DNA of 64,000 bases from the human T2T-CHM13v2.0 reference genome, Homo sapiens. The DNA lies in assembly GCA_009914755.4 (NCBI GenBank), contig CP068257.2, positions 18,752,001-18,816,000 of the forward strand, read 5' to 3'. The notes beneath the pieces are model-generated. The model saw nothing but the letters and a program-made list of their open reading frames with translations. It had not been told where the DNA came from and made no database searches. Each line of letters begins with the position of its first letter. The first letter of the stretch is position 1. This document shows positions 58,413 to 58,976 of this stretch, one piece after another. The translations under genes and the position numbers were made by a program.

Positions 58413-58626
58413 GTGATTACTAAAACATACCTACATACATATATATGCATAGATATAATCCATTCCACATATATATGTGTGTGTGTAAAGGAATTCTCCT
58501 CCTTTCTAAGGAGGAGAATGTCAATATATGATTAATGAAGACCATTAGCACAAAAGAAGATCAGAAAGAAGAAATAAAAAAGAGAATAAAGAAAAAGCAA
58601 GAAAAATAGTTCATAGGAAGAGAATT

Positions 58627-58679
<53 letters not shown>

Positions 58680-58976
58680 TCTCTTTGGATGTACACACAC
58701 ACATATATATGTATATGTGCAGTAATCTTCTGAATTTATATATATGTAGGTATGTTTTAGTAACCATAAGATTACTACACATATACATATATAGTGTGTG
58801 TATGTATATATATCCAAAGGTGATATATATATATATATATATCTCCATTCTCTTACTATGAACTCTGTATTTTTCTTGCATTTTCTTTATTCCCTTTTTT
58901 ATTTCTTCTTTCTGATCTCCTTTTGTGTTAATAGTCTTTATTAATCATATATTGCCATTCTCCTCCTTGGAAAGAG
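58413..58976. repeat. Complex nested inverted repeat (palindrome) interleaved with (TA)n/(CA)n microsatellites. It may be a MITE-like element or a local inverted duplication.
   Basis: Left block 58487-58625 (aaaggaattctcctcctttctaaggaggagaatgtcaatatatgattaatgaagaccattagcacaaaagaagatcagaaagaagaaataaaaaagagaataaagaaaaagcaagaaaaatagttcataggaagagaat) reappears as its reverse complement at 58848-58976 (attctcttactatgaactctgtatttttcttgcattttctttattcccttttttatttcttctttctgatctccttttgtgttaatagtctttattaatcatatattgccattctcctccttggaaagag), at about 90% identity. A second segment, 58413-58490 (gtgattactaaaacatacctacatacatatatatgcatagatataatccattccacatatatatgtgtgtgtgtaaag), is reverse-complemented at 58690-58777 (tacacacacacatatatatgtatatgtgcagtaatcttctgaatttatatatatgtaggtatgttttagtaaccataagattac). 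Microsatellite runs separate the blocks: (TA)8(CA)14 at 58626-58675 and (TA)11 at 58826-58848. Confidence 0.8.

What the first reader, a model, noticed from the sequence alone, without database searches (positions are those of the whole stretch)
58413..58976. Complex nested palindrome built from inverted blocks and microsatellites
Two blocks of unique sequence, X/W at 58413-58490 and Y/Z at 58487-58625, each recur downstream as reverse complements. Their order is swapped: rc(X/W) lies at 58690-58777 and rc(Y/Z) at 58848-58976. (TA)n(CA)n tracts sit between the blocks. Block Y (ctcctcctttctaaggaggag) is also self-complementary. Arms of roughly 130 bp at about 90% identity can form a long hairpin or cruciform. 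Such structures are associated with replication-dependent instability. In the human genome many short palindromic units are non-autonomous DNA-transposon (MITE) relics, so this could be a MITE with microsatellite expansion in its loop. It could also be a fold-back inverted duplication. Either way it is the most unusual local structure in the window.
Basis: seen in the sequence. Interest (0 to 1): 0.5.

Follow-up and report, generated by a model that had tools for sequence, protein, structure and literature searches.

The report
Inverted local copy from template switching
A ~270-base stretch of a primate genome was copied backwards and inserted next to its own source, most likely by a DNA-replication slip tens of millions of years ago, leaving a real but ordinary 470-base hairpin-forming relic that is not a transposon.

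Summary
B 58502-58625 pairs with B' 58847-58974 (115/128 identical, z=35). A 28-nt unique core, a1 58409-58436, pairs with a1' 58744-58771 (26/28, z=15). The two pairs are interleaved (A B A' B'), not nested. 58502-58974 folds into one ~470-nt hairpin (z about -26).

The window is primate DNA (CpG o/e 0.20, dimeric Alus, L1s). My best explanation is a single event with two template switches. It inserted an inverted copy (F2, ~58502-58771) of the local segment a1-microsatellite-b between a1 and b. This is the rare '3-1-4-2' type of the four-point template-switch model, here about 270 nt long.

Support:
- Only F2 has novel junctions at both ends.
- The return junction lies in a 7-nt microhomology (CATAAGA).
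- a1 and B are equally diverged (7.1% vs 7.3%).
- With F2 removed, the sequence aligns collinearly to an ancient antisense L1 consensus (z=3.5). This is modest support, and the consensus was recalled from memory.

It is not a MITE: no TSD, no known terminal motif, no other copy found. It is not a PATRR: 72% AT, arms 90% identical, 32-nt spacer. It reaches no Rfam family threshold.

Verdict: a neutral structural relic and a tidy example of a known mutational class. Interest is low.

The parts
57100..57383 (-). 3' end of an ancient L1M-type LINE in antisense orientation. It is context for the left flank. Weaker remnants at 57825-58017 continue the same element.
   Evidence: 76% identity over 288 nt to positions 3-288 of an antisense L1M consensus. 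I recalled the consensus from memory. It is validated by 3.6-kb and 1.4-kb hits to the window's own L1 copies; 57825-58017 aligns to consensus 1831-2048 (z about 5.5).
58409..58436 (+). a1: a unique 28-nt core in its ancestral (direct) position. It is the end of fragment F1's demonstrable homology and corresponds to switch point 3 at its left edge.
   Evidence: 26/28 identical to rc(58744-58771); z=15 against shuffles. It is contiguous with the left flank.
58437..58492 (+). TA/TG-rich tail of F1 ('a2'). It may be a third copy of the microsatellite-bearing segment, but this is not demonstrable.
   Evidence: it scores 42 and 32 against copies 2 and 3, versus 43-56 against unrelated microsatellites; it is collinear in the three-way alignment.
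58493..58519 (.). Junction 1 (F1 to F2). The breakpoint is at about 58502/58503, with at most 2-4 nt of microhomology.
   Evidence: homology of F2 to rc(B' end) starts at 58502-58503. The left stem matches both the start and the end of b at 11/12, so its source is ambiguous.
58502..58771 (-). F2: the derived inverted copy of the ancestral segment a1-microsatellite-b. It contains B (58502-58625), (TA)10 (58627-58646), (AC)17 (58646-58679), C (58683-58732), the palindrome loop (58733-58764) and a1' (58744-58771).
   Evidence: its reverse complement aligns to a1 on the left and to C'-x-B' on the right. It is the only block with novel junctions at both ends; rc(F2) aligns collinearly to L1M consensus 4220-4348 (z=3.2).
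58765..58771 (.). Junction 2 (F2 to F3): the 7-nt microhomology CATAAGA shared by the end of the inverted copy and the start of the resumed direct sequence.
   Evidence: the observed sequence follows rc(copy 1) up to ...CA.AAGA, and follows the direct partner of C from that same 7-mer onward. Each present-day partner matches 6/7.
58765..58974 (+). F3 start: the direct-orientation source C' (58765-58819), (AT)10 (58823-58842) and B' (58847-58974). It continues uninterrupted into the right flank.
   Evidence: B/B' 115/128 and C/C' 46/55. B' plus flank, joined to a1 plus left flank, aligns as one block to consensus 4129-4348 (z=3.5).

Best explanation
This is a neutral structural relic of one replication- or repair-associated rearrangement in a primate genome.

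The ancestral sequence was a decayed, antisense L1M-type fragment reading left flank - a1 - TA/TG microsatellite - b - right flank. During copying, the nascent strand left its template near the start of b (point 1, about 58502). It re-primed on the complementary strand at the far end of b (point 2, about 58974 in today's coordinates). It then copied backwards through b, the microsatellite and a1 to point 3 (58409), producing the inverted block F2 = 58502-58771. Finally it returned to the original template at a 7-nt microhomology inside the microsatellite region (point 4, CATAAGA, 58765-58771) and carried on.

The product is F1 (...a1) + rc(a1...b) + F3 (...b...). It necessarily contains two crossing inverted-repeat pairs, a1/a1' and B-C/C'-B'. 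It is the '3-1-4-2' outcome of the four-point template-switch model, or '3-4-1-2' if the microsatellite part is truly present three times. It is also a 0.3-kb miniature of inverted-triplication (DUP-TRP/INV-DUP) rearrangements.

Afterwards the copies diverged by about 7%, and (CA)17 expanded on one side only.

Shown directly: the blocks, their orientation, the junction positions, the equal divergence of the two pairs, and the hairpin potential. Inferred: the ancestral order, that it was one event, the replication mechanism, and that the microsatellite triggered the stalling. No present function is implied. The only 'activity' is the capacity to form a ~470-nt imperfect hairpin in single-stranded DNA or in RNA.
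For: - Only F2 has novel junctions at both ends. a1 is contiguous with the left flank and B' with the right flank.
- Junction 2 is resolved to a shared 7-mer. The observed sequence tracks rc(copy 1) up to CA.AAGA and the direct partner from there on.
- a1/a1' divergence (2/28 = 7.1%) equals B/B' divergence (9/124 = 7.3%; Fisher p=1.0), as expected if both pairs were born together.
- Ancestral-order test: the predicted ancestor (58300-58436 joined to 58847-59135) aligns as one collinear block to antisense L1M consensus 4129-4348 (137/223 identical, z=3.5, 2/150 dinucleotide shuffles as good). rc(F2) aligns to 4220-4348 (z=3.2). The present-day arrangement (z=-0.1), the swapped order (z=1.8) and the opposite strand (z=-0.2) do not.
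- The arms differ from each other by ~7% but from the consensus by ~35-40%, so F2 was copied in situ long after the L1 inserted.
- Both junctions abut TA/TG tracts.
- The 10% arm divergence rules out an assembly or cloning fold-back artefact.
Against: - No outgroup sequence could be obtained, so the ancestral state is inferred, not observed.
- The L1M consensus was recalled from memory, and the collinearity test is only modestly significant (p about 0.01-0.02).
- Junction 1 shows little microhomology (at most 2-4 nt), and its left half cannot be assigned uniquely.
- F1 carries ~55 nt after a1 that must either be a third copy of the microsatellite segment or have turned over beyond recognition. 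A third copy would imply switch order 3-4-1-2, a type never seen among short events in PMC5453318.
- (TA)10 lies next to b in copies 2 and 3 but is missing in copy 1. In the short unique part of a2, copies 2 and 3 are closer to each other (26/28) than to copy 1. That pattern could indicate two steps or arm-to-arm gene conversion.
- F2 (~270 nt) is several-fold longer than the template-switch fragments documented in primates (examples of 28 and 83 nt in PMC10710096).
Confidence: 0.6

Rival explanations
1. Two or more independent events. First an inverted (fold-back) duplication created the palindrome B-x-C / C'-x-B'. Separately, a short inverted templated insertion (or gene-conversion tract) placed a copy of a1 in its loop, or placed a copy of the loop upstream.
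For: - In the short unique part of a2, copies 2 and 3 agree 26/28 while copy 1 is much more different.
- (TA)10 next to b is shared by copies 2 and 3 only.
- The third-copy status of 58437-58492 is not demonstrable.
- Junction 1 lacks clear microhomology.
Against: - It needs at least two rare events at the same 0.5-kb spot.
- The a1/a1' and B/B' divergences are identical within error (7.1% vs 7.3%).
- a1' sits exactly at the end of the inverted block and abuts the junction-2 microhomology. A single continuous inverted copy predicts this; it would be a coincidence otherwise.
- rc(F2) is collinear with the L1M consensus across the a1-to-b join.
Confidence: 0.17
2. A micro-inversion made by two staggered double-strand breaks. 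Fill-in of the overhangs and end joining duplicates both breakpoint regions in inverted orientation. This is the 'isochromatid/staggered break' model described for Drosophila inversions (PMC1885836, identified).
For: The end product, L-a1 | rc(a1...b) | b-R, is formally the same as the observed topology. Little microhomology at junction 1 would suit end joining.
Against: - It requires overhangs of at least 28 nt at one break and at least 210 nt at the other within a 0.3-kb segment.
- The 7-nt microhomology at junction 2 fits a microhomology-primed switch better.
- If the a2-x segment is really triplicated, the two staggers would overlap, which this model cannot produce.
- Two DSBs so close together are considered unlikely (discussion in PMC8755829).
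Confidence: 0.1
3. A non-autonomous DNA transposon (MITE) whose long terminal inverted repeats are B and B', with microsatellites expanded in its interior.
For: It has long inverted termini and a size of ~470 bp. Palindromic MITE relics do exist in this genome, for example a MADE1-like repeat at 4574-4614.
Against: - No TSD of 2 nt or more at any boundary.
- No known hAT, Tc1/mariner or piggyBac terminal motif within 3 mismatches (motifs recalled from memory).
- No second copy in 64 kb.
- B' together with a1 is collinear with an L1 consensus, so the 'TIR' is LINE-derived sequence.
- It does not explain a1 lying outside the element while a1' lies inside it.
Confidence: 0.03
4. Two independent insertions of the same repeat family in opposite orientations (as with inverted Alu pairs), or an assembly or cloning fold-back artefact.
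For: Inverted repeat-family pairs are the commonest source of inverted repeats in primate DNA. This window is full of Alu and L1.
Against: - The arms differ by only ~7% while each is ~35-40% from the L1M consensus, so they share a recent common ancestor in situ.
- The arms share the same microsatellite layout, including (TA)10.
- An artefact would give identical arms, not 9 substitutions plus an indel, and would not contain diverged microsatellites.
Confidence: 0.03

Closest known systems
Template-switch mutations under the four-point model, type '3-1-4-2' (Loytynoja & Goldman 2017, PMC5453318; Walker et al. 2021, PMC7954356)
   Same: One event with two strand switches inserts a reverse-complement copy (fragment 2->3) of nearby sequence. 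[quoted passage not shown] That matches the crossing a1/a1' and B/B' pairs here. It creates hairpin potential in one step.
   Different: - The inverted fragment here is ~270 nt. The events surveyed are tens of nt (PMC10710096 gives examples of 28 and up to 83 nt).
- The type is rare (1% of high-confidence events).
- The locus lies in repeat-derived, microsatellite-rich DNA. The surveys I read screen out such sequence: PMC7954356 requires that the donor template is not RepeatMasker-masked, and PMC10710096 excludes events overlapping simple repeats and, in its polymorphism data, repeat elements.
- If the microsatellite part is triplicated, the order would be 3-4-1-2, which was not observed at all.
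- The ancestral state is inferred, not seen in an outgroup.
DUP-TRP/INV-DUP inverted triplications formed by iterative template switches (MMBIR/BIR) at genomic-disorder loci (PMC11293582, PMC4352052)
   Same: It has a direct-inverted-direct arrangement with two junctions in cis. One or both junctions use pre-existing inverted homology or microhomology. A replicative repair origin is proposed for both.
   Different: - The scale differs by three to four orders of magnitude: 0.3 kb here versus tens of kb to Mb.
- Those events use inverted low-copy repeats of kb size at one junction, whereas here there is only a 7-nt microhomology.
- The triplicated middle segment is not demonstrable here.
- This one is ancient (arm divergence implies ~17-38 Myr) and, by inference, long-standing and probably fixed, not a recent pathogenic variant.
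Palindromic AT-rich repeats (PATRR11, 22, 17, 8; PMC4940405, PMC1851657)
   Same: It is a palindromic sequence several hundred bp long (473 bp) in human-type DNA, with AT-rich microsatellite at its interior and strong predicted hairpin/cruciform potential.
   Different: - AT content is 72%, the same as the flanks, whereas PATRR11 and PATRR22 are described as more than 90% AT.
- The arms are 90% identical (74% over the full length with gaps) and there is a 32-nt spacer, whereas PATRRs are nearly perfect and spacer-less.
- Asymmetric PATRR alleles are the ones that do NOT generate translocations.
- No translocation evidence is available here.
Inversions with inverted duplications at both breakpoints (staggered-break model, Ranz et al. 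2007, PMC1885836)
   Same: The end-product topology is the same: each end of the inverted segment is duplicated in inverted orientation on the far side.
   Different: Those inversions span kb to Mb in Drosophila chromosomes. Here the whole inverted segment is ~270 nt and most of it is 'duplicated end'. Microhomology at junction 2 and a possible triplication fit replication switching better.

Membership tests
MITE / non-autonomous DNA transposon | Target-site duplication flanking the terminal inverted repeats | tested here: not met
   no adjacent direct repeat of 2 nt or more at boundaries 58502/58974, 58494/58979 or 58409/58974.
MITE / non-autonomous DNA transposon | Terminal motif or sequence of a known superfamily (hAT, Tc1/mariner, piggyBac) | tested here: not met
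   eight terminal motifs, recalled from memory, were searched with up to 3 mismatches in 58380-59000 and gave no hit. MADE1 hits 4574-4614 only. No Dfam/RepeatMasker run was possible.
MITE / non-autonomous DNA transposon | Multiple dispersed copies in the genome | not testable with these tools
   There is no other copy in the 64-kb window. The metagenome and viral contig scans were empty, but they do not sample primate genomes. A genome-wide BLAST is needed.
Four-point template-switch mutation, type 3-1-4-2 | A fragment that is the reverse complement of adjacent sequence, bounded by two switch junctions, with direct-orientation sources on both sides (order 3<1<=4<2) | tested here: met
   rc(58502-58771) matches a1 to its left and C'-x-B' to its right. 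The junctions are at ~58502 and 58765-58771.
Four-point template-switch mutation, type 3-1-4-2 | The ancestral (reference) state lacks the inverted fragment and has F1 and F3 contiguous | tested here: inconclusive
   No outgroup was obtainable. Proxy test: F1+F3 aligns as one block to a recalled L1M consensus (z=3.5, 2/150 shuffles), and the controls fail. This is supportive but modest, and the consensus comes from memory.
Four-point template-switch mutation, type 3-1-4-2 | Point 1 precedes point 4 (no triplicated segment) | tested here: inconclusive
   the F1 tail 58437-58492 resembles copies 2 and 3 no more than it resembles unrelated microsatellites, so 3-1-4-2 and 3-4-1-2 cannot be separated.
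PATRR (palindromic AT-rich repeat) | Several hundred bp long | tested here: met
   The palindrome 58502-58974 is 473 bp.
PATRR (palindromic AT-rich repeat) | Extreme AT-richness (more than 90% AT; PMC4940405) | tested here: not met
   72.3% AT overall, with arms at 71-72% and flanks at 72-74%.
PATRR (palindromic AT-rich repeat) | Nearly perfect palindrome without spacer | tested here: not met
   Arms are 89.8% identical. Full-length identity is 74% over 514 columns with 12 gap openings. There is a 32-nt loop at 58733-58764, and (CA)17 on one side only.
PATRR (palindromic AT-rich repeat) | Site of recurrent or constitutional translocation breakpoints | not testable with these tools
   The genomic locus is not identified, and no breakpoint data are available.
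DUP-TRP/INV-DUP | The middle segment is present three times, with the central copy inverted | tested here: inconclusive
   One search shows a collinear three-way alignment, but one search shows that the third copy is not distinguishable from microsatellite similarity.
Rfam miRNA families (mir-297/466/3149/1277/5014) | Score at or above the family gathering threshold | tested here: not met
   no hit at gathering thresholds in the whole window; best hits are 20-40 bits against thresholds of 81-101, in several cases on both strands, in TA/TG repeat sequence.

The most novel reading that the evidence does not exclude
The most novel reading my evidence does not exclude has two forms.

1. This is a several-hundred-nucleotide, one-step, template-switch-born hairpin lying in repeat-derived DNA, a class that published template-switch surveys filter out. 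If it sits in a transcribed region, its ~200-bp imperfect double-stranded stem could be a substrate for ADAR editing, or for Dicer/Drosha processing into lineage-specific small RNAs. That would extend the 'de novo miRNA from template switching' idea (PMC10710096) to much longer events.

2. Alternatively, it is an unrecognised, polymorphic palindrome that behaves as a weak replication-fragile site.
Probability: 0.06. Interest if true: 0.5.

Novelty: new member of a known kind. Interest (0 to 1): 0.2.

Why it matters
On its own it matters little. It is a non-coding structural relic in repeat-rich primate DNA, with no sign of function.

Its modest value is as an unusually clear and unusually long (~270 nt) example of a two-switch inverted copy that gives two crossing inverted repeats. 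That outcome made up only 1% of short template-switch events (PMC5453318). It also sits in repeat- and microsatellite-derived sequence, which the surveys I read filter out. This hints that mid-sized events (between tens of nt and kb) may be under-counted.

It is also a reminder that long hairpin-forming palindromes in primate genomes need not be transposon relics.

Tried and rejected
- Prokaryote-style reading: rejected at once. CpG o/e is 0.20 and there are full-length dimeric Alus and L1 ORFs.
- Pfam scan of the three minus-strand frames of 55960-59900, with stops replaced by X: no family.
- tblastn with L1 ORF1p and ORF2p recalled from memory: strong hits elsewhere in the window, none within 57-60 kb.
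- Comparison of the flanks with the window's own young L1, by blastn with relaxed scoring and by nhmmer: nothing usable.
- Attempts to obtain an orthologue or second copy: three exact-ORF look-ups, two metagenome scans and one viral-contig scan. All came back empty.
- 'Triplication' of the microsatellite-bearing a2-x segment: I favoured it at first from the three-way alignment. I downgraded it after the control against unrelated microsatellites.
- Strong microhomology at junction 1 (TCTCTT.CC): on exact inspection only about 2-4 nt can be claimed.
- miRNA identity: only sub-threshold, low-complexity hits, several on both strands.
- PATRR identity: fails on AT content and on symmetry.
- One literature query failed on syntax and was rerun.

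Full report
**Host and setting**

The window is vertebrate DNA, and specifically primate. GC is 37% and CpG observed/expected is 0.20. There are at least nine dimeric Alu copies, the best at 93% identity to an AluY consensus, plus L1 3' ends. L1 ORF1p and ORF2p remnants include a nearly full-length plus-strand L1 at 43.3-48.65 kb. The Alu, L1 protein and L1M queries were recalled from memory. Their long, highly significant hits validate them as queries. The prokaryote- and phage-oriented tools therefore have little bearing on this finding. No Rfam family reaches its gathering score anywhere in the window.

**Checking the observation**

Reading 58200-59200 and running repeat finders and gapped alignments confirms the blocks.

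- B 58502-58625 is the reverse complement of B' 58847-58974: 115/128 columns identical, with 9 substitutions and one 4-nt indel.
- A 58409-58487 is the reverse complement of A' 58692-58771: 67/81 identical.

Against shuffles, B/B' has z=35, the 28-nt core of A (a1, 58409-58436, 26/28) has z=15, and the unique core of C has z=8.5.

The remainder of A (58437-58493) aligns no better to its supposed partners (scores 42 and 32) than to unrelated TA/TG microsatellites at 59136-59310 and 40030-40150 (43-56).

The microsatellites are (TA)10 at 58627-58646, (AC)17 at 58646-58679 and (AT)10 at 58823-58842. The self-complementary 'block Y' is a perfect 10-bp stem with a 7-nt loop at 58493-58519.

**Topology**

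B-x-C and C'-x-B' form one long near-palindrome, 58502-58974 (473 bp), with a 32-nt loop at 58733-58764. BLAST sees it as a single 514-column self-reverse alignment at 74%.

a1' lies in and beside that loop, while a1 lies ~300 bp upstream, outside the palindrome. A/A' therefore crosses B/B'. The arrangement is interleaved, not nested, and both pairs cannot form in one unknotted fold.

Folding 58400-58990 gives the B-C/C'-B' hairpin only. As DNA the energy is -153 kcal/mol against -44 +/- 4 for shuffles (z=-26). As RNA it is -257 kcal/mol (z=-24).

**What it is**

Aligning three segments in a common orientation shows the following:

- The reverse complement of 58502-58771 (F2) is a complete copy of a1 - TA/TG-rich stretch - b.
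- The sequence to its left (F1) supplies a1 in direct orientation.
- The sequence to its right (F3) supplies the TA/TG stretch and b in direct orientation, and then runs on into the flank.

F2 is the only block with novel junctions at both ends.

Junction 2 is sharply defined. The observed sequence follows rc(copy 1) up to ...CA.AAGA, and from that same 7-mer it follows the direct partner of C. That is a 7-nt microhomology (58765-58771).

Junction 1 lies at about 58502/58503 with at most 2-4 nt of overlap. Its left half (ATTCTCCTCC) matches both the start and the end of b at 11/12, because b begins and ends with the same 11-mer, so it cannot be assigned.

a1/a1' and B/B' are equally diverged (7.1% and 7.3%, Fisher p=1.0; K2P 0.077). 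This fits a single birth. At commonly used primate neutral rates (my own knowledge, not a tool result), it corresponds to roughly 17-38 Myr.

**Ancestral order**

No orthologue could be retrieved. Three exact-ORF look-ups, two metagenome scans and one viral-contig scan were all empty.

As a proxy I used an antisense L1M consensus recalled from memory. It is validated by 3.6-kb and 1.4-kb hits to the window's L1s, and it identifies antisense L1M 3' ends at 57100-57383 and 63675-64000.

Results of the proxy test:

- The left flank continues the same element weakly (57825-58017, z about 5.5).
- The best local hits of the A region and of B' fall at adjacent consensus positions on the same strand: 4129-4238 and 4247-4348.
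- The predicted ancestor, 58300-58436 joined directly to 58847-59135, aligns as one collinear block to 4129-4348 (137/223 identical, z=3.5, 2/150 dinucleotide shuffles as good).
- rc(F2) aligns to 4220-4348 (z=3.2).
- The present arrangement, the swapped order and the opposite strand score at or near the null level (z=-0.1, 1.8, -0.2).

This is modest evidence, but it points in one direction: a1 and b were neighbours on one strand of an old LINE fragment, and F2 is a later inverted copy. The arms are ~7% apart but ~35-40% from the consensus. That excludes two independent insertions of the same repeat family.

**Mechanism**

The simplest history is one replication- or repair-associated event with two strand switches:

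1. Leave the template near the start of b.
2. Re-prime on the complementary strand at the far end of b.
3. Copy back through b, the microsatellite and a1.
4. Return at the CATAAGA microhomology.

[quoted passage not shown] If the TA/TG segment is truly present three times, the order would be 3-4-1-2. That type was not observed in their data. My data cannot decide between the two.

The same logic at kb-Mb scale is the DUP-TRP/INV-DUP inverted triplication formed by iterative template switches (PMC11293582, PMC4352052).

Both junctions abut TA/TG tracts. These are plausible fork-stalling sites, but this is an inference. After the event, (CA)17 expanded on one arm only.

**Rivals**

- A two-step history is the main alternative (about 0.17). 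It draws support from the closer similarity of copies 2 and 3 in the short unique part of a2, and from the (TA)10 tract shared only by copies 2 and 3. It is opposed by the equal divergences and by a1' sitting exactly at the end of the inverted block.
- A staggered-break inversion (PMC1885836) yields the same topology. It needs very long overhangs and does not use the observed microhomology.
- The MITE reading fails on TSD, terminal motifs and copy number within the window. The 'TIR' is also LINE-derived.
- PATRR membership fails on AT content (72% against more than 90%) and on symmetry.
- Sub-threshold Rfam hits are all to TA/TG-repeat miRNA families, at 20-40 bits against thresholds of 81-101, in several cases on both strands.
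- An assembly artefact is excluded by the diverged arms.

**Verdict**

The object is an old, apparently functionless product of a known mutational class. It is notable only for its size (~270 nt inverted fragment; published primate examples are 28-83 nt, PMC10710096) and for lying in repeat-derived DNA that template-switch surveys filter out.

Novelty: a new member of a known kind. Interest: 0.2. The decisive test is a primate orthologue comparison, together with a RepeatMasker/Dfam annotation of 57-60 kb.

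Noticed in passing
window 43312-48652: A nearly full-length plus-strand L1 with recognisable ORF1p and ORF2p remnants (52-87% aa identity in pieces, with frameshifts). It is interrupted by an Alu at 44500-44780.
   Followed up: partly
window 555-1850 and 2603-3100: Two minus-strand L1 ORF2 C-terminal fragments. The first is 82-87% identical at protein level to human L1 ORF2p, so it is relatively young.
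   Followed up: no
window 57100-57383 and 63675-64000: Two antisense 3' ends of an ancient L1M-type LINE (76% and 67% to a consensus recalled from memory). The first lies 1 kb left of the palindrome and appears to be the same decayed element that contains it.
   Followed up: partly
window 4574-4614: A 41-nt match (90-92%) to the MADE1/Hsmar1 terminal inverted repeat. This is the only MITE-like sequence seen in the window.
   Followed up: no
window 52130-52990 and 60673-61122: Two direct-orientation copies (75-82% identical) of an unidentified interspersed repeat. The first copy is split by the youngest Alu in the window (52321-52589, 93% to AluY).
   Followed up: no
window 59143-59306: A second compound microsatellite 170 bp right of the palindrome: imperfect (TA/TG)n followed by a perfect (AG)18. 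Its inverted and direct 'matches' to 58624-58680 are simple-repeat resemblance only.
   Followed up: partly
window 58849-58859 and 58957-58967: Segment b begins and ends with nearly the same 11-mer, ATTCTC(T/C)T(A/C)CT. This makes the source of the left half of the junction-1 hairpin ambiguous. It could have guided a slippage or switch.
   Followed up: partly
window 58610-58850: Sub-threshold Rfam matches to TA/TG-repeat miRNA precursor families (mir-5014, mir-297, mir-466, mir-3149, mir-1277), several on both strands and far below gathering scores. They reflect repeat composition, not homology.
   Followed up: yes
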